Shown: positions 6,034 through 48,866 of the stretch, piece after piece
Layout: each line of letters starts with the position of its first letter
How positions within the stretch are numbered: the first letter of the stretch is position 1
From: Bacteroidota bacterium
Lineage (GTDB): Bacteria > Bacteroidota > Bacteroidia > 2-12-FULL-35-15
Length of the DNA stretch: 64,000 nt
Reading direction: 5' to 3'
NCBI GenBank assembly: GCA_017303895.1
Contig: JAFLBF010000006.1
Span: 78,618 to 142,617, forward strand
Notes under the pieces: model-generated
The model's database searches: none
Told to the model about the DNA's origin: nothing
What the model saw: the letters and a program-made list of their open reading frames with translations, nothing else
Made by a program: the position numbers and the translations under genes

Positions 6034-7689
6034 TTAAAGCGCAATTAAGTTATAGATCCAGAATACTAATCCGCCTAACAAGGCACTGATCGGAATCGTT
6101 AATACCCAAGCCCATAATAAACTTACGGTAACTCCCCAACGAACAGCTGATAGACGTTTTGTAACACCAACACCAATGATCGCACCGGTGATGGTATGTG
6201 TTGTACTCACAGGGATACCCATCTGTTCTGTTAAGAATAATGTAGTGGCACCTGCAGTTTCTGCTGAAACTCCTTCCAATGGAGTTACTTTGGTGATCTT
6301 TGTTCCCATTGTTTTTACGATCTTCCATCCACCACTTAAGGTACCAATACCTATTGCTAAATAGCAGGATAATGGAACCCAATCAGGCATCGCTTTTATA
6401 TCAACAATATCTCCATGAGCGATCAATGCTGCTGCAATGATACCCATTACTTTTTGAGCATCGTTACCTCCATGACCAATACTGAAGGCAGCAGATGAAA
6501 GCAATTGTAATTTCTTGAACATGTTACCTGTTCTAGTCGCAGTCGGTTCTTTGATCTTTTCATTGTAAATGAAAATTAAGCAGAATAATAAAAGTGCTCC
6601 GATCAAACCCCAACGCACGACCTTGTTGTCTGCTTTATCCAATTCTTTGGCAAGATCAGCCTTTGCATCAACAGTTACTGCTTTTTTGAACTCTTTCAAA
6701 TTGTCAGCTCCTACAGGATACTTCGCATTCATTTCTGCTACCATTGAGTCTAATCCAATGTCAAAGAATTTTTTCGCAATTGGTTTTAAACTGTCTACAT
6801 GCTCCTGGGCGACTTCATAATCATGTTTGAATGTAGGGTCAACTTTAGATTTGTTTTTTAACTGGTCTAATTTGTAATACTTTTTTAGACCATCTTCGAT
6901 TTTGCTAATGGTAACTTCTTTCAAGCTTACATTTTTAGCAATTTCTTCTGCAACAGCTTTTGCTCCATTTGATTCATAGCTGGAAAGGTAAGGTGCACAT
7001 AATTTTGCATTTTCTTTAGCTTTCTCTAATTTTTTGATCTTCGATTCATCGTGTTTTACTTCTACCTCATACGTGTATTTGTCAACACGGAAGAATTTTT
7101 TCGCACTCTCGTTTAATTTATCTTCCTGAAAATCGATGAATAAGAACCAAAGCGCTACAGAAGTCGCTAATAGGATCCCTACTTTTAACCATGTTTTATT
7201 TTGAATGAAGATCAATGTAAAGAACATGGAGATGATCATACCGACTACGGGAGCAAGGAAAATAAATGCAACCGTTTTCCCGATCTTTCCGCCATCAATG
7301 ATCTCATTGATAGGCATCATTCCTTTGCTGATAAAGGCATAAGCAAGAGCCGATCCTGCGAAACCACCGATAAGCGTGTGTGAAGAGGAGGATGGGATTC
7401 CGTACCACCATGTTAATAAATTCCAAATGATAGCAGCGATCAATCCGCTGAAGATCACAGGTAAAGTAATAAAGTCGGAATACACCGTTTTCCCAATTGT
7501 ATTGGCAACAGCATGATCCTTGAAAATTAAGAATGCAACGAAGTTGAAGAACGCAGCCCAAAGAACAGCTTGGAATGGTGTTAAAACTTTTGTTGATACG
7601 ATAGTTGCAATAGAGTTGGCTGCATCATGAAATCCGTTAATAAAATCGAAGATCAGCGCTAACGCTATTACTATAATTAATAATGTCAT
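6034..7689 (-). CDS. pit: Inorganic phosphate transporter of the PiT family, carrying a large K/E-rich central hydrophilic loop
   Basis: 551 aa. N-terminal FINGFHDAANSIAT and C-terminal GHGGNDAQKVMGII PiT signature repeats. Hydrophobic TM blocks flank a hydrophilic insert of roughly 180-200 aa. Confidence 0.85.
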   Translation of the reverse strand: MTLLIIVIALALIFDFINGFHDAANSIATIVSTKVLTPFQAVLWAAFFNFVAFLIFKDHAVANTIGKTVYSDFITLPVIFSGLIAAIIWNLLTWWYGIPSSSSHTLIGGFAGSALAYAFISKGMMPINEIIDGGKIGKTVAFIFLAPVVGMIISMFFTLIFIQNKTWLKVGILLATSVALWFLFIDFQEDKLNESAKKFFRVDKYTYEVEVKHDESKIKKLEKAKENAKLCAPYLSSYESNGAKAVAEEIAKNVSLKEVTISKIEDGLKKYYKLDQLKNKSKVDPTFKHDYEVAQEHVDSLKPIAKKFFDIGLDSMVAEMNAKYPVGADNLKEFKKAVTVDAKADLAKELDKADNKVVRWGLIGALLLFCLIFIYNEKIKEPTATRTGNMFKKLQLLSSAAFSIGHGGNDAQKVMGIIAAALIAHGDIVDIKAMPDWVPLSCYLAIGIGTLSGGWKIVKTMGTKITKVTPLEGVSAETAGATTLFLTEQMGIPVSTTHTITGAIIGVGVTKRLSAVRWGVTVSLLWAWVLTIPISALLGGLVFWIYNLIAL

Positions 7690-7731: not shown

Positions 7732-8376
7732 CTAGGAATGTTTTACTAGTATAGAACCAATAACGTTTGCTGCATCTTCACATTTATCAGTAGCCGTTTC
7801 AAGCGCTGATAACACATCTTTCATTTTGATTACCTCTACTGCATTTTTTTCTGTTTCAAATAAATTGGCAATAGCCGTATCAAATACATCATCTGCATGA
7901 TTTTCGATGCTGTTGATTCTCACCGTTGCTTCTTTGATCTTAGAGATATTTTTCAAATTCTTTAATTCAACAACTGCAGTATGTAATTCTTCTGAAGATT
8001 TTTGGATCAATTCAGCCAATTTGATAATTGGTGGTGTCATTTGATCTACTTTGTATAGTTCCATTCTTTTTACAGAACCATGGATGTAATCTACAACATC
8101 ATCTACTGATGATACCAAAGCGTGAATGTCTTCACGGTCGAATGGAGTGATAAAGTTGGCACTTAATTCATGAAATGTCTCGTGCGTAATGCTATCTCCA
8201 ACATGCTCAAGGCGTTCTATCTCTTTGTATAGTTCACGTTTTTTTTCCGGGCTACTGGTATTTACTAATTCAACCAACACTTTGGATGTTTGAACTAAGT
8301 TAGAAGATGCTCTTTCAAACAGTGGGAAGAACTTTTTGTCTTTTGGCTGAAAGTATTGAAAAATGTTTAAGCTCAT
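7732..8376 (-). CDS. PhoU-like phosphate transport regulator (DUF47 / PhoU_div family)
   Basis: 214 aa all-helical protein lying 42 nt upstream of pit. The canonical pit–DUF47 pairing supports the call. Confidence 0.8.
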   Translation of the reverse strand: MSLNIFQYFQPKDKKFFPLFERASSNLVQTSKVLVELVNTSSPEKKRELYKEIERLEHVGDSITHETFHELSANFITPFDREDIHALVSSVDDVVDYIHGSVKRMELYKVDQMTPPIIKLAELIQKSSEELHTAVVELKNLKNISKIKEATVRINSIENHADDVFDTAIANLFETEKNAVEVIKMKDVLSALETATDKCEDAANVIGSILVKHS

Positions 8377-8409
8377 TTTGATTGTTTTATGATAATTATG
8401 GTAACAAAA

Positions 8410-8449
8410 GTAACCCTGAAGCCTTTATTAAACGTTTTTGCAGGGTTAC
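8410..8449 (-). terminator. Stem-loop (9-bp stem, 22-nt loop) followed by a U-tract on the minus strand, between the porin and PhoU-like genes. Putative terminator or attenuator.
   Basis: GTAACCCTG ... CAGGGTTAC. On the minus strand it is followed by TTTTGTTACC. Confidence 0.35.
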
Positions 8450-8485
8450 TCTTGTATTAATTTAATGTTAAGGGAATGTTAAGAG

Positions 8486-9730
8486 CTAGAAGTTGAACTG
8501 TGCTTGAAGACGTAAGAGGTTGCCTTTCTGTTTGTTATCTTTTAGCACAGCATCCTCAAATCTTCTTTCTGACATGGTATACATAGCTACAAACTCAAAG
8601 TTTTTGATCGGTTGCCATTCAATTCCCATCTCTAATTCATTTACGGTATAGCTTCTGGCGTCCAACTCATGCTTTTTGCCACCATCATACATTTGATATT
8701 TTACAAAAGGGAAAATAACTTGCTTCTTGATTTTTAGCATATAGTTGATCATGGCATAGCCACCCATTAGGTCTTGTTGCATAACCATATTGCTGTCCAC
8801 ATTGTATTCGGGACCTGTTCCAATGTTGTATTCTGCCTGAAAACCAAATGGTTGTGGGTATAGAATGATGCTTGCGGCAGCACGTTGATCTAAGAATTCA
8901 GCTTTTTCCATAGGAACATTTTTAGACAGGGTAGTAACTACATAATTCCCTGTATAACCTTGGATACCGGCCTCTAAAATTTGACCATTTTTGAACATAA
9001 ACGGATACGTTAGTCTGGCAACCATGTGCTGATTATCATTTGCTTCCGGCTTGTTGGCGGTTTGACCATTGTAAATTCCGAATGCGAAGACACCATAGTC
9101 GCCCGACCCTTTTAATCCATCATTTACAAGATCTGAGAAGCGTTTGCGAATCTTTTTTGGAGCCCAATAAAAGAATACACCTAAGTCACGTTCATTAGCT
9201 ACTGCACTATTGAGCGCATCGTTACGGTCTAATGTTAAACGGTTCTGGCTGGATTGCATATTCTCAAATCCAAAAGGAATTTTACTTTGCCCGAATCGAA
9301 GTCTGAATTCTTTATTTTTATCTAAGGAAAGATCCATATACGCATCTCTTAGCTGTCCAAAGTGCAAGCCGGTTGTAGAAGCAGAGGAAGCAAAGTCGGG
9401 TTGAATGTAAATATAAACACGTTCATGAACATTTCCGTATAGAATTACACGCATACGTCTTAGGAACAAGCCTCCCCCTTTTCCCCATGACTTATCACAT
9501 TGTTCACAATTAAGGTCTGGATTGGTTTCTAAAAAGCGGTTGTAACGGACTTGTGCATACCCTCTTATAGAGATGTTTTCATACCAGTGCTTTTTTGCCT
9601 CTGCCGGTTTGCTCTGTTCTACTGGTTTTGTAGTGATTTCATTTTTGGTAGAATCGGTTTGAGCCTGTGTAGTCAGTAGTCCCGAAAGGACGATTGAGAT
9701 TGTTAAAAAAAGGTGTCCGCTTGTTTTCAT
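8486..9730 (-). CDS. Outer-membrane porin, probably of the phosphate-selective porin O/P family
   Basis: 414 aa with a signal peptide and a beta-rich sequence ending in a C-terminal aromatic residue (…QAQFNF). It sits in a phosphate-gene context. Confidence 0.5.
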   Translation of the reverse strand: MKTSGHLFLTISIVLSGLLTTQAQTDSTKNEITTKPVEQSKPAEAKKHWYENISIRGYAQVRYNRFLETNPDLNCEQCDKSWGKGGGLFLRRMRVILYGNVHERVYIYIQPDFASSASTTGLHFGQLRDAYMDLSLDKNKEFRLRFGQSKIPFGFENMQSSQNRLTLDRNDALNSAVANERDLGVFFYWAPKKIRKRFSDLVNDGLKGSGDYGVFAFGIYNGQTANKPEANDNQHMVARLTYPFMFKNGQILEAGIQGYTGNYVVTTLSKNVPMEKAEFLDQRAAASIILYPQPFGFQAEYNIGTGPEYNVDSNMVMQQDLMGGYAMINYMLKIKKQVIFPFVKYQMYDGGKKHELDARSYTVNELEMGIEWQPIKNFEFVAMYTMSERRFEDAVLKDNKQKGNLLRLQAQFNF

Positions 9731-9830
9731 TATAGTTAACTGTAGGTTAAATAAATATTATACAGCGGCAAAAGTATTTTAACAATTAATTTACAGTGTT
9801 ATGGCAATGTTAAGTAATGGTAAATTTTAG

Positions 9831-9862
9831 GTAATAAAAAAGGCGGAGCAATTGCTCCGCCT
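9831..9862 (-). terminator. Rho-independent terminator downstream of the T9SS cargo gene
   Basis: AGGCGGAGC aatt GCTCCGCCT hairpin. A TTTTTTATTAC run follows on the minus strand. Confidence 0.65.
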
Positions 9863-9886
9863 TGTAAACTCTTATTGATGATATTT

Positions 9887-11539
9887 TTATTTTGCTACAA
9901 CAAATTTTACTGTTTTGCTGGTACCATCTACTTGGATAGTTGCGAAATATAATCCTGCTGATATAGTTGATGCATCGAACTTAACGATTGATCTACCTGA
10001 GTTCATGTTTTCATTTAAAGGTTGTGCGATCAATTTTCCTGTAATATCGTAAATGTTTACGATAACATCAGAAGAATGATTCAGATTGATCGCTATTGAA
10101 ATAGACTCTTTAGCCGGATTTGGGAATAATGATACATTGCTTAATGCAGCTTCATTTTCTTCCACTCCAATTAATTGTCCATTGAATTTTGGATCAGTAA
10201 ATGATGCTCCTGTTGCAGCAGTTGATCCTGCTTGTAAACGGTAGTCAGGTGTGCTGTTCAAATTTGACGGGAATGCATTTACCCATGCAACTTGTGCTAC
10301 TGTATTTGTTGAATCATTATTATCTCCTGTAAAGATTGTTGAATAGAATGACAATGAGTTATTTGCATCCAATGTTATTACTCTAGGTGACATATCTGCT
10401 AAAAGTAAGTTGTTTGCAAATACGGCAGAATCATTAGTAGTAAAATTATCTACAGTTCCGGCATCTTTAATATAGATACCTTTTTCCCATGATGTATGGA
10501 TAGAATTGAAGATAGATACCGCAGAATTTCTTCTTAAATAAATAGCACGTTCAAATTTTTCTCCGGCAGGTAATGTTACTGTTCCGTTTCTTTTTGGTCC
10601 AATGTTCGTAACGTTTGAGAATATTGGTTGTGTTCTTGGAAATGCAGCAGAACCTGTCGCATCGTTATCACACTCAAAACCATTTGAATCTCCGGCAGCA
10701 TCAGAAAGATCAGAATCTCTAATGATCAAACCAAATTGTACACGACCTCTCCATCCAAAATCGCAGTCGAAATCATCATCAAGATTTCTGAAGGAGATCA
10801 AATATTTTGCATCTACTTTCCCACCAAACCACTCAAATCCATCATCTCCACCGAAGGAAACTTGTAAGTGATTTAAAACTGTTTTAGAGCCAACCGATCC
10901 GAATGTGATACCATTTGTTTCTTTATTTGGTTGTAAGGCGATCCCTGAAAATTCAACTCTGCAATAGGATAATACACCTGAACTGTCTGCATCGTCTGTT
11001 CCACCATATTCTGTATCTGAAGAAACCGCTAATCCTTCAATATTAGCAACACCACCAGGTTGATTGTTTTGACCTTTACCTAATATTACTAATCCACCCC
11101 AGTCACCTTCTGCTCTTACACCTGCTGCTTCTCCTGAAGTAAATACGATCGGATTGCTTGATGTTCCTTGTGCAACAATTTTTGCTCCTTTTGTGATGAT
11201 CAAGGTTCCTTGTGTTGCTTTATCACCTCGAACTATTACTCCCGGCTGAATTGTTAATACGGCATTATTCTTAACATAAACTTTGTTTTGTAAGTTTACG
11301 ATGGTTCCAGTTGTCCATGTTGTGTTAGTCGTAATGTCGGAACTAACTGTAGTTGTAGGATTGCCATAATTTGTATTTTCAGGATCCCAGTTTGCCCAAC
11401 CGCTTGTCCAATCGGTTGCAGCTGTATTATCAGTAACAGGGAAAGCTCCTTTATAAGTTGTCGGAGTCCAGAACGCTGTTTGCGCATTTAAACTACCAGC
11501 AACAATACTTGCGATAGCTAATGAGTAAATTTTTTTCAT
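9887..11539 (-). CDS. Secreted protein with a T9SS C-terminal sorting domain and unknown core function. The start is probably the internal MKKIYSL; the ORF track extends it to 11569.
   Basis: Signal peptide MKKIYSLAIASIVAGSLNAQ and a Gly/Asp-rich beta-solenoid-like core. The C-terminal ~80 aa (LFPNPAKESISI…GLYFATIQVDGTSKTVKFVVAK) is a typical Por/T9SS CTD. Confidence 0.6.
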   Translation of the reverse strand: MKKIYSLAIASIVAGSLNAQTAFWTPTTYKGAFPVTDNTAATDWTSGWANWDPENTNYGNPTTTVSSDITTNTTWTTGTIVNLQNKVYVKNNAVLTIQPGVIVRGDKATQGTLIITKGAKIVAQGTSSNPIVFTSGEAAGVRAEGDWGGLVILGKGQNNQPGGVANIEGLAVSSDTEYGGTDDADSSGVLSYCRVEFSGIALQPNKETNGITFGSVGSKTVLNHLQVSFGGDDGFEWFGGKVDAKYLISFRNLDDDFDCDFGWRGRVQFGLIIRDSDLSDAAGDSNGFECDNDATGSAAFPRTQPIFSNVTNIGPKRNGTVTLPAGEKFERAIYLRRNSAVSIFNSIHTSWEKGIYIKDAGTVDNFTTNDSAVFANNLLLADMSPRVITLDANNSLSFYSTIFTGDNNDSTNTVAQVAWVNAFPSNLNSTPDYRLQAGSTAATGASFTDPKFNGQLIGVEENEAALSNVSLFPNPAKESISIAINLNHSSDVIVNIYDITGKLIAQPLNENMNSGRSIVKFDASTISAGLYFATIQVDGTSKTVKFVVAK

Positions 11540-11659
11540 TTTTTTAGTATTTAAATTTATTTGATACAAAATTAGATGTGTGTTATTGTGCTAAGATTAT
11601 GGTCGGGTTATGCGTTTTTTATATGTATATTAATAGAACATTATGTTGTTAACTTAAAA

Positions 11660-11690
11660 TAAAAAGAGCCGCATTTGCGGCTCTTTTTAT
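11660..11690 (-). terminator. Rho-independent terminator immediately downstream of the TonB-dependent receptor gene
   Basis: AAAGAGCCGCATTTGCGGCTCTTT hairpin with T-runs on both strands. Confidence 0.7.
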
Positions 11691-11693
11691 TTA

Positions 11694-14549
11694 TCAAAAT
11701 TTGTAGGATAGTGAGATCGATATGGTTTGTCCATTTTTCGTATCCACCATCGTGTTGTCTTTTTCTTTATCATACTTTTTGTTTTTATCAATATCCTGAT
11801 AAAGAATGGCGTTTTGTGCCAATACATCTTTAATGTTCAATTTTACCTCAAATTTTTCTTTGAAACGTTTAGAGAATTGTAAGTCTAATAAGTGTCTTGG
11901 ATTTTCCCAATAATCAGGTTCACTAGTACTTCCTATCAGATATAGTCTTCTGCCAACATAGTTGTAAGACACTGCTGCACTAAATCCATTGCTTGGATGT
12001 GAGTAGAAAAGTCCTGCATTTACAAGAAGTGGCGACTGCCCTTGCAATGGACGCTCCTCTGCAGTTGATCCATTGATCTTGCTTACATCTACCTTCGAAA
12101 TGATATACGCAAAATTACTGAAGAAAGTAATTGAATTTAACACTTCATTTGAATCAGCTTTGAATAAGGATGATAATTTTACTCTGTATTCAAGTTCGAA
12201 TCCAACATTGGTAGCATTCGGTGCGTTGATGTAATATTGTTCGCGTAATACATCCGGTCGGTTAGCCATTTCAATTGGATTGCTGAAATTTTTGTAAAAT
12301 GCCGAAACGGAGAATAATTGTCCTACTCCAGGATACCACTCATATCTTAGATCATAGTTATCAACGATCGTTCTCTGCAGGTTTAAATTTCCTGAAACAG
12401 CAAAGTCTGTTAAGAAATCGAAAAAGATGAAAGGTGCTAATTCCCTGAACTCCGGACGAGCTACCGTTCTGTAGTAACTCGCTCTTAAATTCATTTTGTC
12501 GTTTAAGGAATAAACAATGTTTAATGATGGTAAAATGTCATTTACAGTAGTATCCACCACAATAGGTTCACTTGTTCCATCTTTGATCGTTTCAATGCGT
12601 TGATTATATGATTCAAGTCTTGCTCCATAGATAAAACGTAATTTTTCAAGTGCTTTCGTGTCGAACATCAAAAAACCAGCATTAAGCATGGAGGAAGCCT
12701 GGTAGCTATCGCTTGTTTTTGTTGCTTCATCCAGTTTGAATCCACCATTATATGGTCCGGCTTGATCCGTTAAGCCCATATTCTCAGCAGAGAATATTTG
12801 ATCTTCCGGCAAATAAAGTAGTTCACTGTCAAATTTAACGGCACTACCTCTTCTGTATTTAGAAAAGCCTAAGCTTCTAGAGCTGAATTCACGATCTCTA
12901 AATTGGTGAAATCCACCGATCTTAATATCTGTTTTTGTCTTCTTGATCTCTACCGGCAATGTGGCATCGTATTTTAAACTAAGGATGTTTTCTTTGGTAT
13001 TGGAGAAAAACATATTTCCAGCAGCGTTAGGGATAGTTCCTTCATTTTGTACAACAGCAGCATATTGTGCACTTGGATCGGCTTCGGTTGCTGATACTTT
13101 TTGATATACCATTCTTCGCATATTAGGAACATCTCTACTGATATTACTTAATCCTCCTATCCAATTGATCTTGATCTTGCTTTTAGGAAGCAAGTGTGTT
13201 CCAATCAATTGTGAGCTTAATAAGTTGTTTTGGGTATACCATCTTAAGGATGCTTTTTCCCAATATTTTTCGGGTTGATCATATTCTCTAGCGCCACCTC
13301 TGATCGCTACTTTATCATCGGTATTGATACTATAAATGTTTTTTAAACTTAATTGATTGTTGTCGTTTAACTTAAGAGATAAATTCCACATGGCGCTAGC
13401 TAATATGCTCTGAGTGAAAAGTGTATCTTGAAGTTCCATTCTTTTTACAACACCAGTTGTTTGTTCTTCATATTCTCTTCTGGTGATCTCATTTCTTGAA
13501 AAATTATTGTTATAAGTGATTGCAAATAAACTCCCCGCTTCTCTCTTAAATACCTTTCCTACATTGGCCATGCTATATTGTAATGAAAGGTTTGGAAGTG
13601 CAGTAGTATTATTGATCTTCCAAGAGCCTGTCATTTTTTTCCCATATTCTGCTTTTTCATCTATGGTCGCATGTTCGTAATCAGCAGTTGACGGTATTCC
13701 GCCTGGAATAGAGCGTGATCCATCATCTACTCCTAAAAAATCTGTTTTGCCACCTTCGTAAGTTTTGAAATTTTTAAAGGTGGTAACAGTGTTAAATCCT
13801 GTTCCAATAGAGATCGTTTGTTCATTTTTTTCGGGAATACTCTTCGTGTTTATTTGAATGATACCACCGGCAAATTCTCCTGGAAGATCAGGCGTTGCGG
13901 TTTTAATAATGATCAAATTGTCCAACATGTTTGATGGAAAAATGTCAAATGCAAATGCTTTTCTATCCGATTCAGAACTTGGAAGTGGTGCCCCATTAAT
14001 ATAAGCTGAATTATATCTGTCGTTTAATCCACGGATAATTGCAAACTTATTATCCTGAATACTTGCTCCACTAACACGTTTTAATACATCGCTTGTGCTT
14101 CGGTCGGGTGTTCTTCTTATTGATTCGGAAGAGATTCCGTCAGAGACAGAAGCATTGTTCTTCTGCATTACAAATAGAGCATTGTTTGTTTCCTTGCTCA
14201 TGGTAGCTGTTACTTCCACTACCCCAAGATCAGTAGAAGCGCTGCCTAAACTAATAGTAACAATTGTGGGTTCTCCTGCCTTTACAATAACATCAGTAAG
14301 ATTTTTTGTGTTGTAGGAAATTAATTTGCAAACTAGATTATATGTTCCTGGTGCAACATTGTTAATAGAGAAATTTCCATCGAAGTCCGTGTTGCCTCCT
14401 GTGGTTGTTCCATTGATCATAACAACTGCTCCGGGAAGTGTTTCTCCTGTTTTTTCATCTATCACTTTCCCCTTTATACTGGAGTTTTGAGAAATTGCTA
14501 CCTTTGTAACTATAATTATTGCTAGCGTAAAAAATAATCTGAAATTCAT
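11694..14549 (-). CDS. TonB-dependent outer-membrane receptor with an N-terminal CarbopepD_reg-like domain
   Basis: 951 aa. Signal peptide, a KGKVIDEKTGETLPGAVVMI CarbopepD_reg domain, plug and barrel regions, and a C-terminal …SISLSYKF. No SusD-like partner gene is present. Confidence 0.85.
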   Translation of the reverse strand: MNFRLFFTLAIIIVTKVAISQNSSIKGKVIDEKTGETLPGAVVMINGTTTGGNTDFDGNFSINNVAPGTYNLVCKLISYNTKNLTDVIVKAGEPTIVTISLGSASTDLGVVEVTATMSKETNNALFVMQKNNASVSDGISSESIRRTPDRSTSDVLKRVSGASIQDNKFAIIRGLNDRYNSAYINGAPLPSSESDRKAFAFDIFPSNMLDNLIIIKTATPDLPGEFAGGIIQINTKSIPEKNEQTISIGTGFNTVTTFKNFKTYEGGKTDFLGVDDGSRSIPGGIPSTADYEHATIDEKAEYGKKMTGSWKINNTTALPNLSLQYSMANVGKVFKREAGSLFAITYNNNFSRNEITRREYEEQTTGVVKRMELQDTLFTQSILASAMWNLSLKLNDNNQLSLKNIYSINTDDKVAIRGGAREYDQPEKYWEKASLRWYTQNNLLSSQLIGTHLLPKSKIKINWIGGLSNISRDVPNMRRMVYQKVSATEADPSAQYAAVVQNEGTIPNAAGNMFFSNTKENILSLKYDATLPVEIKKTKTDIKIGGFHQFRDREFSSRSLGFSKYRRGSAVKFDSELLYLPEDQIFSAENMGLTDQAGPYNGGFKLDEATKTSDSYQASSMLNAGFLMFDTKALEKLRFIYGARLESYNQRIETIKDGTSEPIVVDTTVNDILPSLNIVYSLNDKMNLRASYYRTVARPEFRELAPFIFFDFLTDFAVSGNLNLQRTIVDNYDLRYEWYPGVGQLFSVSAFYKNFSNPIEMANRPDVLREQYYINAPNATNVGFELEYRVKLSSLFKADSNEVLNSITFFSNFAYIISKVDVSKINGSTAEERPLQGQSPLLVNAGLFYSHPSNGFSAAVSYNYVGRRLYLIGSTSEPDYWENPRHLLDLQFSKRFKEKFEVKLNIKDVLAQNAILYQDIDKNKKYDKEKDNTMVDTKNGQTISISLSYKF

Positions 14550-14602
14550 TCTAATTCTGTTTAATTTAATACTGCAAAGTAAGTTCAGCTATTGAAATGC
14601 GG

Positions 14603-14685
14603 TGTTAATCAAAAATTAAACTAGTGTTAATTAAAATGGATTGTTGAGAAGGTTTGTTAATGTTATGTTAATTGCAAATTAACAT
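14603..14685. promoter_or_regulatory. Four TGTTAAT direct repeats at roughly 11/22/30-bp phasing plus a 21-bp perfect palindrome (ATGTTAATTGCAAATTAACAT). They lie in the divergent TBDR/response-regulator intergenic region and are a candidate Pho-box-like operator.
   Basis: TGTTAAT begins at 14603, 14625, 14655 and 14666. The palindrome spans 14665-14685. TGTTA(A/T) pairs at 11-bp spacing also occur at 8466/8477 and 9797/9808. Confidence 0.4.
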
Positions 14686-14734
14686 TGCGGTTAAGTCTAA
14701 TAACGAACTTTACCGTAAATAAAAAAAGAAAAAA

Positions 14735-15424
14735 ATGAGTAACAATAGTGATTACAGAATATTATTGGTTGATGACGAACCGGATATTATTGAATTTTTA
14801 AGTTATAACTTAAAAAAAGAAGGATTTAATGTGTATACAGCTAACAATGGGAAAGAAGCTATTGCAGTGGCGAAGAGAGAGAATCCGCATGTTATTATTC
14901 TGGATGTGATGATGCCTGATATGGATGGTATAGAAACCTGCAGAGAGATAAGAGAGATCCCCGGCTTGAAAGATGTGATGATCGCATTCTTAACAGCTAG
15001 AAATGAAGATTATTCTCAGATAGCCGGATTTGAAGTGGGTGCAGATGATTATATTAACAAGCCCATCAAACCAAGAGTATTGATCAGTAGGATCAAAGCC
15101 TTATTGAGAAGGGGAGGAAGTGTTGAGACAACTGCTAACGAAAAGGTGGATATGGGTGGAATTAAGATTGACAGAGAACGTTACCTTGTTGTGCAGAATG
15201 AAAAAGAGATCAATTTGCCTAAAAAAGAATTTGAATTACTTGCTTTGTTGGCTTCTAAGCCCGGGAAAGTATTTACCAGAGAAACAATATTGGATAAAGT
15301 TTGGGGTGGGGAAGTAGTAGTTGGTGACAGAACAATAGATGTACATGTTCGTAAATTAAGAGAGAAATTGGGTGAAGATTATATCAAAACGGTAAAAGGT
15401 ATTGGTTACAAGTTTGAATTTTAG
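14735..15424 (+). CDS. OmpR/PhoB-family response regulator (receiver plus winged-helix domain)
   Basis: 229 aa. LLVDDEP acidic pocket, phospho-acceptor Asp (ILDVMMPDMDG), a conserved Lys (LTAR…), and a C-terminal trans_reg_C domain (…DVHVRKLREKLG…GYKF). Confidence 0.85.
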   Translation: MSNNSDYRILLVDDEPDIIEFLSYNLKKEGFNVYTANNGKEAIAVAKRENPHVIILDVMMPDMDGIETCREIREIPGLKDVMIAFLTARNEDYSQIAGFEVGADDYINKPIKPRVLISRIKALLRRGGSVETTANEKVDMGGIKIDRERYLVVQNEKEINLPKKEFELLALLASKPGKVFTRETILDKVWGGEVVVGDRTIDVHVRKLREKLGEDYIKTVKGIGYKFEF

Positions 15425-15439
15425 TATTTTCGTTATTAG

Positions 15440-16471
15440 ATGAAAGATACTTCTCCAAAGATCACCTTGATCATTATTTCGATTATGCTTGCTGTTTTAA
15501 TTGCAGCGGGCATTTTTATTTTTAATGAAGAACATTCCTATTATTACGCAATAGAAGCATTTGTTATTTCTATTCTTTCCTCCTTTGTTCTGTTGTATTT
15601 TGTGAATGCAATTTTGGTGTCAAAGATCAGGTCTCTTTCAAATACAGTTAAAACTTTTCGTGCGCAGAGTGATGATAAGCAAATTGCAAAAGTTGATAAT
15701 AGCCTTAATGAGGTAACGGCACTAAACAATGAGATCATGGCCTGGGCAGAAGACAGGAAGAATGAGATCGAACGATTAAAAAAATTAGAAGTTTATCGCA
15801 AGGAGTTTCTTGGGAATGTGTCTCATGAACTAAAAACTCCCATTTTTAATATTCAGGGTTATGTGCTTACACTATTAGATGGAGGTCTGGAAGATGAAAC
15901 GATCAATCGCGATTATTTGCAGCGGGCTGAACGGAGTATAGATAGAATGATCACCATTATTGATGACCTGGAAGCGATCTCTCAATTGGAAACAGGGGAA
16001 CTGCAAATTGAGCCGGAACGATTCGATATTGTTGCTTTGGCAAAAGATGTAGCAGAAGCGCAAGAGTTAAAAGCTAAAAGCAAAGGAATTTTGTTGAATG
16101 TACAAAATGACGATAAATCCATCTTCGTATATGCGGATAGATTTAGAATTCGTCAAGTGATCGTTAATTTGATCGTCAATTCAATCAAATATGGCAAACA
16201 AAATGGCGAAACAAAGATCCGAATCTACGATATGGGTGAAAATGTTTCCATTGAAGTAGCTGATAATGGATTGGGAATTGCTGCAGAGCATCTACCTCGT
16301 TTGTTTGAACGTTTTTACCGTGTGGATAAAAGCCGTTCAAGGGAGCAGGGAGGAACCGGTTTGGGATTAGCCATTGTAAAACATATTATAGAAGCGCATA
16401 ATCAAACCATTAATGTAATGAGTACTGTCGGTGCCGGAACAGTTTTTTCATTTACTCTGAAGAAAGGATAA
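15440..16471 (+). CDS. PhoR-like sensor histidine kinase (2 TM, HisKA, HATPase_c)
   Basis: 343 aa. H-box NVSHELKTPIFNI, N-box (LIVNSIKYG), G1 (DNGLGI) and G2 (GTGLGLAIV). Confidence 0.8.
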   Translation: MKDTSPKITLIIISIMLAVLIAAGIFIFNEEHSYYYAIEAFVISILSSFVLLYFVNAILVSKIRSLSNTVKTFRAQSDDKQIAKVDNSLNEVTALNNEIMAWAEDRKNEIERLKKLEVYRKEFLGNVSHELKTPIFNIQGYVLTLLDGGLEDETINRDYLQRAERSIDRMITIIDDLEAISQLETGELQIEPERFDIVALAKDVAEAQELKAKSKGILLNVQNDDKSIFVYADRFRIRQVIVNLIVNSIKYGKQNGETKIRIYDMGENVSIEVADNGLGIAAEHLPRLFERFYRVDKSRSREQGGTGLGLAIVKHIIEAHNQTINVMSTVGAGTVFSFTLKKG

Positions 16472-17522
16472 GATCAACTCTTTCTTCTAATAAATTCTTC
16501 ATGTCTTGTCTAGGAAATCCTTTGAATTTTGCAGATTCAGCTATTGATTTTTGTAGATCAAATTCAGATTGCTTTTGATAATAGGCAATATTCTTCTTGA
16601 AAAGTTCTTTGGCTAAATACTCTTGTTCTGTTTGTCCCGGTGTAGGAATAAATATTGCTTTCTTTTGAAGGGCTGAAAGGTCCATAATGGTTGAATATCC
16701 ACTTCTTGAGATGATCAAATTTGATCGGTCGATCATCTGTTCCATGTCATCCGAACTCAAATGAGAGATCATCGTAACATTTCCTTTTTGCTCTATTTTT
16801 TTTGTCCTTTCCGGTAACCCGAACACGACCAGTGACCTTAATCCACTTTTAAATAATTGTTCGGATACAATTCTTTCAAATAGCGTTCGTTGAGGTTCCG
16901 GTCCGGATATGATTGCCATTACATCATATTCTATTTGATGTTGATCCCGGTCAGGTTTAAAGCGTGTTAATGGTCCAATAAAAAAAGTTTTTTCAGTTAA
17001 GGGGTATTTGTGTGAAAGATCGCCAGATAGATTGGGTTCTTTTTCATGATCGGGCACCCAGCACTCATCAAATTGATCAATGTATTTTGAAACGATTCGG
17101 TGAAGTGTATTTTCTCCAAATGGAGACTTGATCATCAGTTGATGGGTAATGAAAATGTTCTTTGTGTTTGCATTCCAGCAGCCGTAACGGTTATCGGAAA
17201 TAACGACATTGATCTGGTGCTTTTTAATGATCTCACTTAAGTCTTCGTTTTCAGCCTTTATTCCTTTAATAATTTTTGGAATAGAGCGAAGCATCGCAAA
17301 GATCATTGATCCCTTTTTAGGATATTGGATCTCGTATCCTTTAAGAAGAATGTGTTTCAAATGTGGAAACTCCTTTTTGAGCAGTTCGGCAGGACGTTTA
17401 TCGGCAGCAATGATCACTTCAGCTCCCTTTTGCTGTAACAGCCGGATAATGGGGATGCACCTGGTGGCATGGCCTAATCCCCAATCGAGCGGACAAATTA
17501 ATATACGTTTACCTTTAGCCAT
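16452..17522 (-). CDS. Glycosyltransferase (GT28 / MGT-like fold). The likely start is MAKGKRIL.
   Basis: N-terminal ILICPLDWGLGHATRC glycosyltransferase motif and a C-terminal GxSGxST-like nucleotide-sugar-binding region (ISRSGYSTIMDL). The gene converges on the HK gene with a 20-nt overlap. Confidence 0.6.
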   Translation of the reverse strand: MAKGKRILICPLDWGLGHATRCIPIIRLLQQKGAEVIIAADKRPAELLKKEFPHLKHILLKGYEIQYPKKGSMIFAMLRSIPKIIKGIKAENEDLSEIIKKHQINVVISDNRYGCWNANTKNIFITHQLMIKSPFGENTLHRIVSKYIDQFDECWVPDHEKEPNLSGDLSHKYPLTEKTFFIGPLTRFKPDRDQHQIEYDVMAIISGPEPQRTLFERIVSEQLFKSGLRSLVVFGLPERTKKIEQKGNVTMISHLSSDDMEQMIDRSNLIISRSGYSTIMDLSALQKKAIFIPTPGQTEQEYLAKELFKKNIAYYQKQSEFDLQKSIAESAKFKGFPRQDMKNLLEERVDLILSSE

Positions 17523-17528
17523 TATTCT

Positions 17529-17536
17529 TAACTTTG
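17529..17536 (+). promoter_or_regulatory. TAnnTTTG -7 promoter element upstream of trmB
   Basis: TAACTTTG lies 39 nt upstream of the trmB ATG. Confidence 0.3.
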
Positions 17537-17574
17537 CAAAGTTAATCAATAAAAGTATTAAGGAGTAGCAGGAT

Positions 17575-18246
17575 ATGGCTAAGCGTAAATTAAAAAAGTT
17601 TGCAGAGGTATCATCTTTTCATAATTGTTTTTTCTTATCGTTTGAACAATCAAAAGGGGAAGGGTTGCCTTTAAAAGGAAAATGGAATAAGGAATTTTTT
17701 AAGAATGATCATCCAATTGTTTTAGAGTTGGGGTGTGGTAAAGGGGAATACACAGTAGGTTTGGCTAAACGCTATCCTGATAAAAATTTTATAGGTGTAG
17801 ATATTAAAGGAAATCGTATTTGGACAGGAGCCAAAGAAGCTGTTGTTAATACCATGAATAATGTTGCTTTTGTGAGAACACGAATAGATTTTATTGAAGC
17901 ATGTTTCGATAAGAATGAAATTAGTGAGATATGGATCACTTTTCCTGATCCTCAGCCTCAAAAGACAAGAGAGCGTAAGCGTCTAACAAATATGATGTTT
18001 ATCAACAGATACCGTAATATATTAAAATCATCGGGTACTGTTAATCTGAAGACGGATAATGAACCTTTTTATGATTATACCCGTGAAGTGATCAAGGAGA
18101 ATAATTTGGTTGAATTGGACGCTACTAACGATCTCTATGCAAACGTTGGTTTGCGTGATGAAGCATTGACAAATATTAAAACGTATTACGAGAAATTATT
18201 TTCTGAAAAAGGATTTAAGATCTGTTATCTCAAATTCAAAATTTGA
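17575..18246 (+). CDS. trmB: tRNA (guanine46-N7)-methyltransferase
   Basis: 223 aa. SAM-binding motif VLELGCGKGEYT and the TrmB-family layout. Confidence 0.85.
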   Translation: MAKRKLKKFAEVSSFHNCFFLSFEQSKGEGLPLKGKWNKEFFKNDHPIVLELGCGKGEYTVGLAKRYPDKNFIGVDIKGNRIWTGAKEAVVNTMNNVAFVRTRIDFIEACFDKNEISEIWITFPDPQPQKTRERKRLTNMMFINRYRNILKSSGTVNLKTDNEPFYDYTREVIKENNLVELDATNDLYANVGLRDEALTNIKTYYEKLFSEKGFKICYLKFKI

Positions 18247-47768: not shown

Positions 47769-48740
47769 ATGAAACGTATTGCACTTATATTTTTGATCGT
47801 ATCCACTATAATCTTTGTGCGTTGCTCCGGATCGCAAGAGGAAGAGGCAACATTTGAACTTCCTGTAACAAAAGAAGAATTAGGTGGACGACTCTTTCTA
47901 GATCCCATTTTATCTAGTGATGGAAAGGTCAGCTGCGCTTCTTGCCATATTCCTGCTTACGCTTTTGCCGATACAGTTGCTTTGAGCAAAGGTGTGGGAG
48001 GGCAATTGGGTTCGCGAAATACACCGAGTGCAATGAACTTAAGTGCACACGATATCTTTTTTCATGATGGTAGAGCAGAGTCTTTGGAGCAGCAAGCAGC
48101 CGGTCCTATCGAAAATCCTGTTGAAATGAACTTGCCTATTTCAGAAGCGGTAAAGAAACTGAGTTCCAACAAAAATTATTTAGCAGCATTTAAGAAACTT
48201 TATAATGAAGCACCTAATAGAGATAATTTATTGGATGCATTGGCCAGTTTTGAGCGCACATTAGAAACTAGCAATACTCCTTTTGATAAATTCATGCATG
48301 ATGATACAACAGCTATCAGTGAATCAGCGAAGCGTGGACAAAAGATATTTAATATTAAAGGAAAATGTTTCGACTGTCATTTCGGTCCCGATTTTACTCG
48401 TGATGATTTCAAGAATATAGGTTTATATAATGGTAAAGATCTGAATGATGTAGGTAGATATGGAGTAACAAAAGATACCGCTGATATTGGAAAATTTAAA
48501 GTTCCCGGCCTAAGAAACGTTGCTGTAACGGCTCCTTATATGCATAATGGAATGTTTAAAACATTAACAGAGGTGATCGATTATTATAATGAACCTCAAA
48601 AATTTGTTAAGGGAAGTATCAATATGGATACAACCATGTTAACGCCATTAAATTTGACTGATCAAGATAAAACGGATTTGCTGGAATTTCTGAAAACCCT
48701 TACTGATGAGCAGTTCAAGGGTGTAGCAAAAAATAAATAA
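47769..48740 (+). CDS. Dihaem cytochrome c peroxidase (CCP/MauG family)
   Basis: 323 aa. Signal peptide and two CxxCH motifs (CASCHI; CFDCHF), plus a conserved PxLRN motif. Confidence 0.85.
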   Translation: MKRIALIFLIVSTIIFVRCSGSQEEEATFELPVTKEELGGRLFLDPILSSDGKVSCASCHIPAYAFADTVALSKGVGGQLGSRNTPSAMNLSAHDIFFHDGRAESLEQQAAGPIENPVEMNLPISEAVKKLSSNKNYLAAFKKLYNEAPNRDNLLDALASFERTLETSNTPFDKFMHDDTTAISESAKRGQKIFNIKGKCFDCHFGPDFTRDDFKNIGLYNGKDLNDVGRYGVTKDTADIGKFKVPGLRNVAVTAPYMHNGMFKTLTEVIDYYNEPQKFVKGSINMDTTMLTPLNLTDQDKTDLLEFLKTLTDEQFKGVAKNK

Positions 48741-48866
48741 GAATTCATTGTGAATAACTTGTTTTGATTAACAAATATTAACACTTGCTTTTTTTGAAAA
48801 AATGCACATATTTGCAAATCTTAAAAATTAAGATGGATCCTGATAATAGTGATAATTGTAAATTAA

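What the first reader, a model, noticed from the sequence alone, without database searches (positions are those of the whole stretch)
14603..14685. Candidate Pho-box: four TGTTAAT direct repeats phased about 11 bp apart plus a 21-bp perfect palindrome, between the divergent TBDR and RR genes
TGTTAAT starts at 14603, 14625, 14655 and 14666, giving spacings of 22, 30 and 11 bp, which is the same helical face. The last repeat lies inside the perfect palindrome ATGTTAATTGCAAATTAACAT (14665-14685). OmpR/PhoB-family regulators bind 7-bp direct repeats at 11-bp periodicity (E. coli Pho box CTGTCAT-N4-CTGTCAT). TGTTAAT is a close analogue. The position between a TBDR gene and the RR gene fits autoregulation and Pho control.
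Basis: seen in the sequence. Interest (0 to 1): 0.6.

Follow-up and report, generated by a model that had tools for sequence, protein, structure and literature searches.

The report
Two Pho-box arrays between divergent promoters
The repeats are real and are most likely the docking sites of the neighbouring phosphate-starvation regulator, arranged as two three-unit arrays that switch on an outer-membrane transporter operon and the regulator's own operon. This is an ordinary kind of switch, seen here in a bacterial phylum where its sequence rules are barely described.

Summary
The "21-bp perfect palindrome" is really 9-bp arms around a 3-nt spacer. The 30-bp gap is out of phase.

The region holds two separate arrays, each with three units of 11 bp and a TTAA core.
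- 14603-14635 faces the TonB-dependent receptor (TBDR) gene.
- 14655-14684 faces the phoB-like regulator gene.

In both, the promoter-proximal unit ATTAACA ends exactly 20 nt before a Bacteroidetes -7 box. That places it at about -39 to -33, where the -33 element would sit.

Related arrays precede the OprP porin gene and the PhoU_div/Pit operon in the same cluster. Triple TTAA at 11-bp spacing occurs 3 times in the window's intergenic DNA, against 0.02 expected.

The same array and the same spacing to the -7 box recur upstream of phoB, TBDR and partner genes in other Bacteroidota. A blind metagenome scan recovered OprP, PhoX and TBDR genes downstream.

Published DAP-seq/EMSA for Riemerella PhoP gives the core TTTAACA. 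The F. johnsoniae gene cluster with the same gene families is induced by phosphate depletion.

Verdict: the Pho-box reading is supported by computation only. It is a new member of a known kind. By sequence it is closest to cyanobacterial SphR boxes and E. coli ArcA repeats, not to CTGTCAT.

The parts
14603..14635 (-). Array A, the Pho box of the TBDR promoter. It has three 11-bp units, read on the - strand as ATTAACActag / TTTAATTtttg / ATTAACAccgc. On the + strand these are TGTTAAT 14625-14631, AATTAAA 14614-14620 and TGTTAAT 14603-14609.
   Evidence: Sequence. It is a TTAA triple at 11-bp spacing. It is conserved in L001-L003. A PWM trained on non-window sites scores 22.7 bits on the - strand against 15.2 on the + strand.
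14575..14582 (-). -7 box of the TBDR promoter, TTACTTTG on the - strand. It lies exactly 20 nt downstream of the proximal unit. The predicted start of transcription is near 14570.
   Evidence: CAAAGTAA is conserved in the window, L001 and L002, and reads CAAAGAAA in L003. The sigma-A box TAnnTTTG spans -12 to -5 (PMC9723704). The fixed register appears in the alignment of 24 sites.
14655..14684 (+). Array B, the Pho box of the phoB-phoR promoter. Units are TGTTAATgtta / TGTTAATtgca / AATTAACA, with TTAA cores at 14657, 14668 and 14679. The proximal 7-mer ATTAACA is 14678-14684.
   Evidence: Sequence. It is a TTAA triple. It is conserved in L001, L003 and L004, and partly in L002. The PWM scores 21.0 bits on + against 17.6 on -.
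14665..14685 (.). Inverted repeat ATGTTAATT-GCA-AATTAACAT formed by units B2 and B3. It is a by-product of two adjacent near-palindromic units and not a separate element.
   Evidence: The arms are 9 nt, 100% complementary, with 3 nt between them. In relatives only GTTAA-N7-TTAAC is kept, and L002 lacks it. It lies upstream of both predicted transcription starts. No Rfam match.
14705..14712 (+). -7 box of the phoB promoter, GAACTTTA (imperfect). It lies 20 nt downstream of ATTAACA. The predicted start of transcription is near 14717, leaving an A-rich 18-nt leader.
   Evidence: CTTTAC is invariant in all five close relatives. The spacing is identical to that of the TBDR promoter.
14689..14695 (+). 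Possible fourth unit GGTTAAG. It sits 12 bp after B3, inside the spacer between the -33 and -7 positions. Its role is unknown.
   Evidence: Sequence. A comparable GGTTAAG or AGATTAA occurs at the same place in L005 and L002.
14735..15424 (+). phoB-like response regulator of 229 aa, with a receiver domain and an OmpR/PhoB winged-helix domain. It is the presumed binder of the arrays.
   Evidence: Pfam Response_reg and Trans_reg_C. The best NCBIfam hits are PhoB TIGR02154 (228 bits, cut-off 296) and Bacteroidetes PhoB NF053854 (220 bits, cut-off 270). The best solved relative is RegX3.
15440..16471 (+). phoR-like histidine kinase of 343 aa. It has two N-terminal membrane helices joined by an 8-residue loop and no periplasmic sensor domain.
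   Evidence: Pfam HisKA and HATPase_c. The best NCBIfam hits are PnpS and PhoR, both below cut-off. Translation.
11694..14549 (-). TonB-dependent receptor gene, the first gene of the operon driven by array A.
   Evidence: Pfam Plug, TonB_dep_Rec_b-barrel and CarboxypepD_reg. Homologues lie next to phoB in many Bacteroidota loci.
9797..9814 (-). Two-unit Pho-box-like site of the OprP porin promoter: CTTAACAttgcCATAACA. It is followed by 20 nt and then the -7 box TACTTTTG (9776-9769).
   Evidence: Sequence. Pattern hits. An intrinsic terminator at 9863-9840 separates it from the upstream gene.
8455..8483 (-). Three-unit array CTTAACAttcc / CTTAACAttaa / ATTAATA upstream of the PhoU_div (7732-8376) and PHO4/Pit (6034-7689) genes. 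It lies 42 nt (20+22) from the -7 box TACTTTTG (8412-8405).
   Evidence: Sequence. It is a TTAA triple and the top PWM hit in the window at 23.4 bits. Pfam PhoU_div and PHO4.

Best explanation
The 185-bp region between the TBDR gene and the phoB-like gene holds two back-to-back promoters that depend on an activator. Each has its own Pho box. A box is three head-to-tail 11-bp units with a TTAA core; the best units read (A/C)TTAACA in the direction of transcription.

In each promoter the proximal unit occupies about -39 to -33, exactly 20 nt upstream of the Bacteroidetes -7 box (TAnnTTTG). It therefore stands where the -33 element would be.

Inferred mechanism. When phosphate is scarce, the PhoR-like kinase phosphorylates the PhoB-like regulator. 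The regulator oligomerises on the phased units on one face of the helix and recruits RNA polymerase. This induces the TBDR / T9SS-protein operon from array A and, by positive autoregulation, phoB-phoR from array B. Related sites do the same for oprP and for the PhoU_div-Pit operon in this cluster.

Shown here: the sequence architecture, its statistics, its conservation and its association with phosphate genes. Inferred: the identity of the binding protein, activation rather than repression, and the response to phosphate.
For: 1. Anatomy. ATTAACA-N20-TTACTTTG on the - strand (14609 to 14575) and ATTAACA-N20-GAACTTTA on the + strand (14678 to 14712) are mirror-image promoters. The -7 box spans -12 to -5 (PMC9723704).

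2. Statistics. There are 3 TTAA triples at 11-bp phasing in the window, against 0.06 expected from whole-window shuffles and 0.021 from intergenic-only shuffles. All 5 TTAACA-N6-TAA matches and all 3 GTTAA-N6-GTTAA matches fall in four intergenic regions of this one phosphate cluster.

3. Conservation. The five-genome alignment shows the units and the -7 boxes conserved and the spacers variable. In intergenic regions next to phoB or TBDR in 50 Bacteroidota loci, TTAA-TTAA spacing peaks sharply at 11 bp (43 pairs) and 22 bp (22 pairs), against roughly 2-10 at most other spacings. Intergenic DNA of these loci plus the window holds 22 triples against 0.24 expected.

4. Independent register. An alignment anchored only on the TTAA triples reveals a tAcTTTGc box at a fixed distance. 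TTTG or TTTA starts 26 nt after the last TTAA in 16 of 24 sites, at 37 nt in 3 and at 48 nt in 1. All these are in phase with 11 bp.

5. Regulon. The sites precede phoB, TBDR, the T9SS-protein gene, oprP and PhoU_div/Pit. A capped blind metagenome scan gave Porin_O_P twice, PhoX once and TBDR twice among 47 downstream ORFs.

6. Regulator. Its best family matches are PhoB. The kinase has a PhoR-like topology. The best solved relative is the phosphate regulator RegX3.

7. Literature.
- The F. johnsoniae cluster with the same gene families responds to phosphate depletion: TBDT rises by log2 8 and PhoB by log2 3 (PMC8115612).
- Riemerella PhoP, whose operon is upregulated on phosphate starvation, binds a motif with the core TTTAACA and binds its own promoter (PMC9603813).
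- SphR boxes are three tandem CTTAACCT units with 3-bp linkers (PMC1906773).
Against: - No experiment exists on this locus or organism.
- The regulator and the kinase score below NCBIfam's PhoB and PhoR cut-offs.
- TTAA-phased arrays are not exclusive to PhoB. In the metagenome hits, the adjacent regulators of L120 and L126 are CopR/CusR-like, so the loose pattern alone does not identify the binder.
- Units B1 and B2 read GTTAAT, the opposite flanking asymmetry to ATTAAC. The polarity of array B is therefore only weakly defined, by 3.4 bits.
- Two Flavobacteriaceae loci (L035, L050) show no perfect triple upstream of phoB.
- In F. johnsoniae, OprP was not induced.
Confidence: 0.8

Rival explanations
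1. The arrays are operators for a different OmpR-family regulator, such as an ArcA-like redox regulator or a CopR-like metal regulator, and not for the adjacent PhoB-like protein. In that case the control is not by phosphate.
For: TGTTAAT matches the E. coli ArcA repeat ATGTTAAAAA, which has 11-bp centre-to-centre spacing and 2-5 repeats (PMC4173790). The Riemerella authors also noted the likeness of their PhoP motif to the ArcA motif. Similar TTAA-phased arrays flank CopR-like two-component systems in L120 and L126.
Against: The adjacent regulator scores 228 bits for PhoB and 136 bits for ArcA, whose cut-off is 334. The kinase has no ArcB-like hybrid architecture. Every array in the window precedes a phosphate-related gene or phoB itself. 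The L120 units are TTTAAT(c/t), not TTAACA. The orthologous-looking F. johnsoniae cluster responds to phosphate.
Confidence: 0.1
2. The functional element is the inverted repeat at 14665-14685. It would be an operator for a symmetric dimeric repressor or a DNA/RNA hairpin, and the other TGTTAAT copies would be incidental.
For: The arms are 9 bp and perfectly complementary. GTTAA-N7-TTAAC is kept in 4 of 5 close relatives.
Against: The outer arm bases are not conserved, and L002 lacks the repeat. TTAA is self-complementary, so neighbouring units of opposite flank asymmetry produce a palindrome automatically. The TBDR, oprP and PhoU_div arrays have no palindrome yet share the unit, the phasing and the -7 register. 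The element lies upstream of both predicted transcription starts. No Rfam match.
Confidence: 0.04
3. The repeats are non-specific AT-rich upstream promoter DNA, such as a curved or UP-like element, or a chance cluster in AT-rich intergenic sequence. No dedicated regulator would be involved.
For: The intergenic DNA is about 29% GC. TTAA is common there, at 0.017 per nucleotide. The heptamer is only weakly enriched window-wide.
Against: Composition-matched shuffles of intergenic DNA alone expect 0.021 triples and 3 are seen. None of the roughly 20 other intergenic regions of the window has one. The arrays are tied to particular gene families across genomes. The G/C flanks of the core (TTAAC) are conserved.
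Confidence: 0.05

Closest known systems
PhoP binding motif of Riemerella anatipestifer (Flavobacteriales), from DAP-seq and EMSA (PMC9603813)
   Same: Same phylum. The regulator belongs to a two-component system that is upregulated on phosphate starvation. [quoted passage not shown] It binds upstream of its own operon and of TonB-dependent receptor genes.
   Different: That study did not call the motif a Pho box. It reported no three-unit 11-bp arrays and no register to the -7 box, and it stressed virulence and aerotolerance targets. The spacing I read from the EMSA probe sequences is irregular, about 10-11 bp in the moxR probe. I could not test whether that regulator is the orthologue of the one here.
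Cyanobacterial SphR Pho box: three tandem CTTAACCT units with 3-bp linkers (PMC1906773)
   Same: Three tandem units at 11-bp periodicity with a (C/T)TTAA(C/T) core, upstream of pst, phoA and sphX genes. One example is CTTAATTCtatCTTAATTTcgaCTTAATCA. This is the closest match in both architecture and sequence.
   Different: The phylum and the promoter type differ. The cyanobacterial unit ends in CCT, whereas here it ends in CA(t/c)t. Here the array is locked to the Bacteroidetes -7 box TAnnTTTG.
E. coli ArcA-P operator: direct repeats ATGTTAAAAA at 11-bp centre-to-centre spacing, 2-5 repeats (PMC4173790)
   Same: The 11-bp or 22-bp phasing and the frequent three-repeat sites also match. ArcA is likewise an OmpR/PhoB-family regulator.
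   Different: ArcA is mainly a repressor of respiratory genes, and its sites overlap promoters. Here the sites sit at about -62 to -33 of phosphate genes. The cognate proteins are PhoB/PhoR-like, not ArcA/ArcB-like.
E. coli Pho box: CTGTCAT-N4-CTGTCAT, two 11-bp direct-repeat units (PMC4415409)
   Same: Both have 7 conserved plus 4 variable bases per unit and a head-to-tail arrangement. Both replace the upstream promoter hexamer, are autoregulated through phoBR, and control porin and transporter genes.
   Different: The sequence differs: TTAACAT matches CTGTCAT at 4 of 7 positions. Here there are three units rather than two. The promoter partner is a -7 box, not a -10 hexamer.
Bacillus subtilis PhoP box: TT(A/T/C)ACA repeats at about 11-bp periodicity
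   Same: The half-site TTAACA is identical to the best units here when read in the direction of transcription. Multiple phased repeats lie on the coding strand upstream of the -10 region.
   Different: That system is Gram-positive with sigma-A -10/-35 promoters and usually four repeats (two dimers). This comparison rests on memory only.

Membership tests
Pho box (operator of PhoB/PhoP/SphR-type phosphate regulators) | Two or more direct-repeat units of 11 bp, each with about 7 conserved and 4 variable bases | tested here: met
   There are three consecutive 11-bp units in each array. TTAA spacing peaks at 11 and 22 bp in 50 related loci.
Pho box (operator of PhoB/PhoP/SphR-type phosphate regulators) | Fixed position next to or replacing the upstream promoter element, at a constant distance from the -10-type element | tested here: met
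   The proximal 7-mer ends 20 nt before the -7 box at the TBDR, phoB and oprP promoters. The register is in phase in 20 of 24 sites across genomes. No -33 TTTG is conserved in that interval. Transcription starts are predicted, not mapped.
Pho box (operator of PhoB/PhoP/SphR-type phosphate regulators) | Found upstream of phosphate-acquisition genes and of the regulator's own operon | tested here: met
   In the window: TBDR operon, phoB-phoR, oprP and PhoU_div-PHO4. In metagenomes: Porin_O_P twice, PhoX once, TBDR twice among 47 ORFs.
Pho box (operator of PhoB/PhoP/SphR-type phosphate regulators) | A cognate PhoB-family regulator and PhoR-type kinase are encoded in the genome | tested here: inconclusive
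   The best NCBIfam hits are PhoB (228 bits against 296; 220 against 270) and PnpS/PhoR, all below the curated cut-offs. The gene neighbourhood matches the F. johnsoniae PhoBR cluster. The kinase topology is PhoR-like.
Pho box (operator of PhoB/PhoP/SphR-type phosphate regulators) | Bound by the phosphorylated regulator | not testable with these tools
   The only support is indirect: Riemerella PhoP binds a TTTAACA motif in DAP-seq and EMSA (PMC9603813).
Pho box (operator of PhoB/PhoP/SphR-type phosphate regulators) | Downstream genes are induced by phosphate limitation in a phoB-dependent way | not testable with these tools
   The only support is indirect: the F. johnsoniae cluster with the same gene families is induced on phosphate depletion (PMC8115612).
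Pho box (operator of PhoB/PhoP/SphR-type phosphate regulators) | Conserved in orthologous promoters (phylogenetic footprint) | tested here: met
   In the alignment of the window with L001-L004, the units and -7 boxes are conserved and the spacers vary.
E. coli-type Pho box consensus (CTGTCAT) | Units match CTGTCAT | tested here: not met
   The units are (A/C)TTAACA or TGTTAAT. The best alignment to CTGTCAT gives 4 of 7 matches.
ArcA operator | Direct repeats TGTTA at 11-bp spacing | tested here: met
   TGTTAAT occurs four times, with 11-bp and 22-bp spacings. The ArcA repeat is defined in PMC4173790.
ArcA operator | A cognate ArcA/ArcB pair and respiratory or redox target genes | tested here: not met
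   The ArcA model scores 136 bits against a cut-off of 334. The kinase has 343 aa with no receiver or HPt domains. The target genes are phosphate transport genes.

The most novel reading that the evidence does not exclude
The locus reveals a phylum-wide Bacteroidota 'Pho-box grammar' that has not been written down.
- Arrays have three units, sometimes two to five, of TTAACA type.
- The arrays are locked in 11-bp register to the phylum-specific -7 box and stand in place of the -33 element.
- In sequence they are closer to cyanobacterial SphR boxes and ArcA repeats than to the proteobacterial Pho box.

If this holds, the grammar could be used to read Pho regulons directly from uncultured Bacteroidota genomes. 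It would mark the TBDR plus unknown T9SS-secreted protein pair, OprP and PhoU_div-Pit as a conserved core.
Probability: 0.55. Interest if true: 0.45.

Novelty: new member of a known kind. Interest (0 to 1): 0.35.

Why it matters
Bacteroidota are major recyclers of organic phosphorus in soil, freshwater and the gut. Their phosphate-starvation regulon includes unusual outer-membrane TonB-dependent systems and abundant secreted proteins of unknown function (PMC8115612).

I found no published operator consensus tied to phosphate control for the phylum. The B. fragilis work stopped at a 512-bp EMSA fragment. The Riemerella work gave a motif but did not connect it to Pho boxes or to promoter geometry.

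A defined unit (TTAACA), the 11-bp phasing and the fixed 20-nt distance to the -7 box together give a practical rule. It can predict Pho-regulated genes in metagenome-assembled genomes and guide the design of phosphate-responsive promoters. As biology it is expected rather than surprising.

Tried and rejected
1. The sigma-70 promoter and terminator scan of the region gave nothing above shuffles. This organism uses -7/-33 promoters, so I read the promoters by eye and by alignment.

2. The Rfam scan of 8000-18000 gave no credible RNA family at the site.

3. I first took 'all 24 triples are intergenic' as evidence. I then realised that three TTAA at 11-bp spacing put stop codons in all six frames. 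I replaced the argument with intergenic-only shuffles.

4. A coding-region check in the metagenome script was uninformative for the same reason.

5. Whole-locus hexamer enrichment was confounded by AT-rich intergenic DNA. Repeated against an intergenic background, GTTAAT/ATTAAC were still 2.8-fold enriched.

6. The promoters of the GT28 gene (about 17522-17560) and the T9SS-protein gene (11570-11693) have good -7 boxes but no phased array. They are not claimed as targets.

The motif was therefore not tested against experimentally phosphate-induced promoters.

8. Literature searches for a Bacteroidetes Pho box returned no consensus. The Riemerella paper surfaced only through the string TTAACA.

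9. The pair of ATTAACA at 48767-48783 has 10-bp spacing and lies 23 nt from a -7-like box. It is out of register and is not claimed.

10. I did not pursue a structure prediction of the 560-aa T9SS protein. It is peripheral, and the homologues held in the loci are not accepted by that tool.
Full report
**The observation**

The four TGTTAAT heptamers are at 14603, 14625, 14655 and 14666 as stated. A fifth copy lies on the - strand at 14678-14684. Across the whole window the heptamer is barely enriched (32 found, 24.5 expected), but five copies fall within 82 bp.

- The '21-bp perfect palindrome' is an inverted repeat with 9-bp arms (14665-14673 and 14677-14685) around the spacer GCA.
- The 30-bp gap is not in phase with the 11-bp and 22-bp gaps.

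Reading the sequence in 11-bp steps shows why. There are two separate arrays, each of three consecutive units with an invariant TTAA core.
- Array A: TGTTAATcaaa / AATTAAActag / TGTTAATtaaa (14603-14635).
- Array B: TGTTAATgtta / TGTTAATtgca / AATTAACA (14655-14684).

Their registers differ by 52 bp, and by 50 bp in L003, so they are independent.

**The neighbourhood**

The region lies inside a phosphate gene cluster. On the - strand are:
- a TonB-dependent receptor (TBDR, 11694-14549);
- a 560-aa protein with only a T9SS sorting tail (9887-11569);
- an OprP-type phosphate porin (8486-9730);
- a PhoU_div/DUF47 protein (7732-8376);
- a PHO4/Pit phosphate transporter (6034-7689).

On the + strand are an OmpR/PhoB-type regulator (14735-15424) and a histidine kinase (15440-16471). 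A GT28 glycosyltransferase gene converges on the kinase gene.

The regulator's two best NCBIfam matches are PhoB models, though below their cut-offs (228 bits against 296; 220 against 270). The kinase's best matches are PnpS and PhoR. The kinase has two membrane helices joined by eight residues and no periplasmic domain, as PhoR does. The closest solved relative of the regulator is RegX3, the mycobacterial phosphate regulator.

Lidbury et al. describe a phosphate-sensitive 'PhoBR operon' in F. johnsoniae with the same families: glycosyltransferase pf04101, OprP pf07396, PhoR, PhoB, a TBDT and lipoproteins. On phosphate depletion the TBDT rises by log2 8.0 and PhoB by log2 3.1. That paper contains no promoter or motif analysis (PMC8115612).

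**Promoter geometry**

On the - strand, the proximal unit of array A, ATTAACA (14609-14603), is followed by exactly 20 nt and then TTACTTTG (14582-14575). On the + strand, the proximal unit of array B, ATTAACA (14678-14684), is followed by exactly 20 nt and then GAACTTTA (14705-14712). These 8-mers match the Bacteroidetes sigma-A -7 box TAnnTTTG, which spans -12 to -5 (PMC9723704).

The proximal units therefore lie at about -39 to -33 and the arrays reach to about -62. Predicted transcription starts are near 14570 and 14717. The arrays stand where the -33 element would be, and no TTTG is conserved there. An E. coli Pho box replaces the -35 hexamer in the same way (PMC1906773; PMC4415409).

**Other sites in the window**

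TTAA-N7-TTAA-N7-TTAA occurs three times in 64 kb: the two arrays above and 8457-8482. The third site lies immediately upstream of the PhoU_div-Pit genes. On the - strand it reads CTTAACAttcc / CTTAACAttaa / ATTAATA.

The oprP promoter has CTTAACAttgcCATAACA, then 20 nt, then a perfect TACTTTTG. It sits behind a clean intrinsic terminator.

All five TTAACA-N6-TAA matches and all three GTTAA-N6-GTTAA matches in the window fall in these four intergenic regions.

**Statistics and a caveat**

Whole-window shuffles expect 0.06 triples. Three TTAA at 11-bp spacing place TAA in all six reading frames, so such arrays cannot lie inside genes, and being intergenic is not evidence in itself. I therefore shuffled the intergenic DNA alone.
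- Window (3.3 kb of intergenic DNA): 3 observed, 0.021 expected, and 0 of 1000 shuffles reached 3.
- Window plus 50 Bacteroidota loci (53.8 kb of intergenic DNA): 22 observed, 0.24 expected.

**Conservation**

A genome scan with the regulator protein gave 50 Bacteroidota loci. In many of them TBDR and T9SS-protein homologues sit next to phoB.

The closest relatives (L001-L004, 79-94% identical regulator) were aligned with the window. Both arrays and both -7 boxes are conserved, while the stretches between them drift.

In intergenic regions touching phoB or TBDR starts, TTAA-TTAA distances peak at 11 bp (43 pairs) and 22 bp (22 pairs), against roughly 2-10 at most other spacings. The hexamers GTTAAT/ATTAAC are among the most enriched relative to other intergenic DNA.

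I collected the 24 perfect triples in these loci and aligned them only on the TTAA cores. A tAcTTTGc box then appears by itself at a fixed distance. TTTG or TTTA starts 26 nt after the last core in 16 sites, at 37 nt in three and at 48 nt in one. Every one of these is in phase with 11 bp.

This holds for TBDR promoters in Crocinitomicaceae-like genomes (L022, L023, L028), where the TBDR gene is not divergent from phoB. In those genomes the T9SS-protein gene has its own four-unit array.

A PWM built without the window's sites ranks the window's three arrays first. It prefers each in the orientation of its downstream gene: A, 22.7 against 15.2 bits; B, 21.0 against 17.6; PhoU_div, 23.4 against 14.7.

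Twenty-nine non-Bacteroidota regulator loci (334 kb, higher GC) hold one triple.

**Regulon test**

I scanned the metagenome collection for the triple plus TTTG at the observed distance.

Among the 47 downstream ORFs of at least 90 aa, the only recurring Pfam families were the Porin_O_P family (2 ORFs), the domains of TonB-dependent receptors (2 ORFs) and those of OmpR-type regulators (2 ORFs). There was also one PhoX alkaline phosphatase with a T9SS tail. Phosphate porins and PhoX are rare genes, so this is real support, although there was no matched control pattern.

One result narrows the claim. At least one of the two regulators recovered, L126, is CopR/CusR-like. So is the regulator on contig L120, which carries four arrays of TTTAAT units around that system. 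TTAA-phased arrays in register with the -7 box thus look like a general format for OmpR-family activators in this phylum. The Pho sites are distinguished by TTAAC(A) units and by their gene context.

**Literature**

I found no Bacteroidetes Pho-box consensus. In B. fragilis, PhoB was shown to bind a 512-bp pst fragment and no site was defined (PMC3547664).

One directly relevant paper surfaced. [quoted passage not shown] The two-component system is upregulated on phosphate starvation. The authors noted the resemblance to the E. coli ArcA motif (PMC9603813).

TTTAACA is the unit found here. The ArcA operator is indeed ATGTTAAAAA repeats at 11-bp spacing, often three of them (PMC4173790). The cyanobacterial SphR box is three tandem CTTAACCT units with 3-bp linkers, for example CTTAATTCtatCTTAATTTcgaCTTAATCA (PMC1906773). 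From memory, the B. subtilis PhoP half-site is TT(A/T/C)ACA.

It belongs with the TTAAC-type boxes of SphR, PhoP and ArcA.

**Mechanism and rivals**

Most likely (0.8), phosphorylated PhoB-like regulator binds the phased units head to tail on one face of the DNA. With the proximal protomer at the -33 position it recruits RNA polymerase. This induces the TBDR operon and, by positive feedback, phoB-phoR. oprP and PhoU_div-Pit would be controlled by related sites.

Shown: architecture, statistics, conservation and gene association. Inferred: the binder, the sign of regulation and the signal.

Rivals:
- A different OmpR-family regulator binds (0.1). This is disfavoured by the family scores, the kinase architecture and the target genes.
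- The palindrome is the real operator (0.04). This is disfavoured because only GTTAA-N7-TTAAC is conserved, L002 lacks it, and the other arrays have none.
- Non-specific AT-rich DNA or chance (0.05). This is disfavoured by the composition-matched shuffles and the gene specificity.

**Verdict**

It is a new member of a known kind of element. Its modest added value is a usable description of Pho-box architecture in Bacteroidota. Interest 0.35.

Noticed in passing
window 8400-8486: The PhoU_div/Pit array starts 3 nt after the oprP stop codon. It lies 42 nt (20+22, still in phase) from its -7 box. Between them is a strong stem-loop: a 15-bp stem, -20.4 kcal/mol, z = -5.0. The 3' arm of the stem contains the -7 box TACTTTTG. 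It could be the oprP terminator or a regulatory structure.
   Followed up: partly
window 9887-11569 (and L001-L003, L006-L008, L020, L022, L023, L028, L046): A protein of about 560 aa has no Pfam domain except a T9SS sorting tail. It is conserved directly downstream of the phoB-linked TBDR in many Bacteroidota. In L022, L023 and L028 it has its own four-unit array. Its function is unknown. It may correspond to the highly phosphate-induced 'FII' proteins of F. johnsoniae.
   Followed up: no
window 11566-11573 and 17520-17549: Two start codons from the mechanical ORF list look wrong. The TTG at 11569 lies inside a perfect -7 box, TAATTTTG. The GT28 gene more likely starts at the ATG near 17522, downstream of a -7 box TAACTTTG, than at the TTG at 17549.
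   Followed up: partly
window 9735-9750: TTAACC-taca-GTTAAC (- strand), two TTAA cores 11 bp apart, sits in the predicted oprP leader just before the ATG. It is downstream of the promoter, so it could be a repressing site or chance.
   Followed up: no
window 48767-48814: Two ATTAACA units at 10-bp spacing lie 23 nt upstream of a -7-like CATATTTG. They sit between a MauG-like di-haem peroxidase gene (47769-48740) and an M23/LysM peptidase gene. A MauG-like gene is strongly phosphate-induced in F. johnsoniae. This site is out of register with the others.
   Followed up: partly
L120 1546-6441: A 7-kb metagenome contig carries four arrays of TTTAAT(c/t) units in -7 register. They surround a CopR/CusR-like two-component system, an OmpA-family gene and a 713-aa protein with no Pfam match. 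This suggests that other OmpR-family regulators in Bacteroidota use the same array format.
   Followed up: partly
window 16452-16471: The kinase gene and the convergent GT28 gene overlap by 20 nt at their 3' ends.
   Followed up: no
any TTAA-N7-TTAA-N7-TTAA site: Three TTAA at 11-bp spacing place a TAA stop in all three frames on both strands. Arrays of this kind are therefore excluded from coding sequence by construction. This is a useful caveat for any enrichment statistic on this motif.
   Followed up: yes
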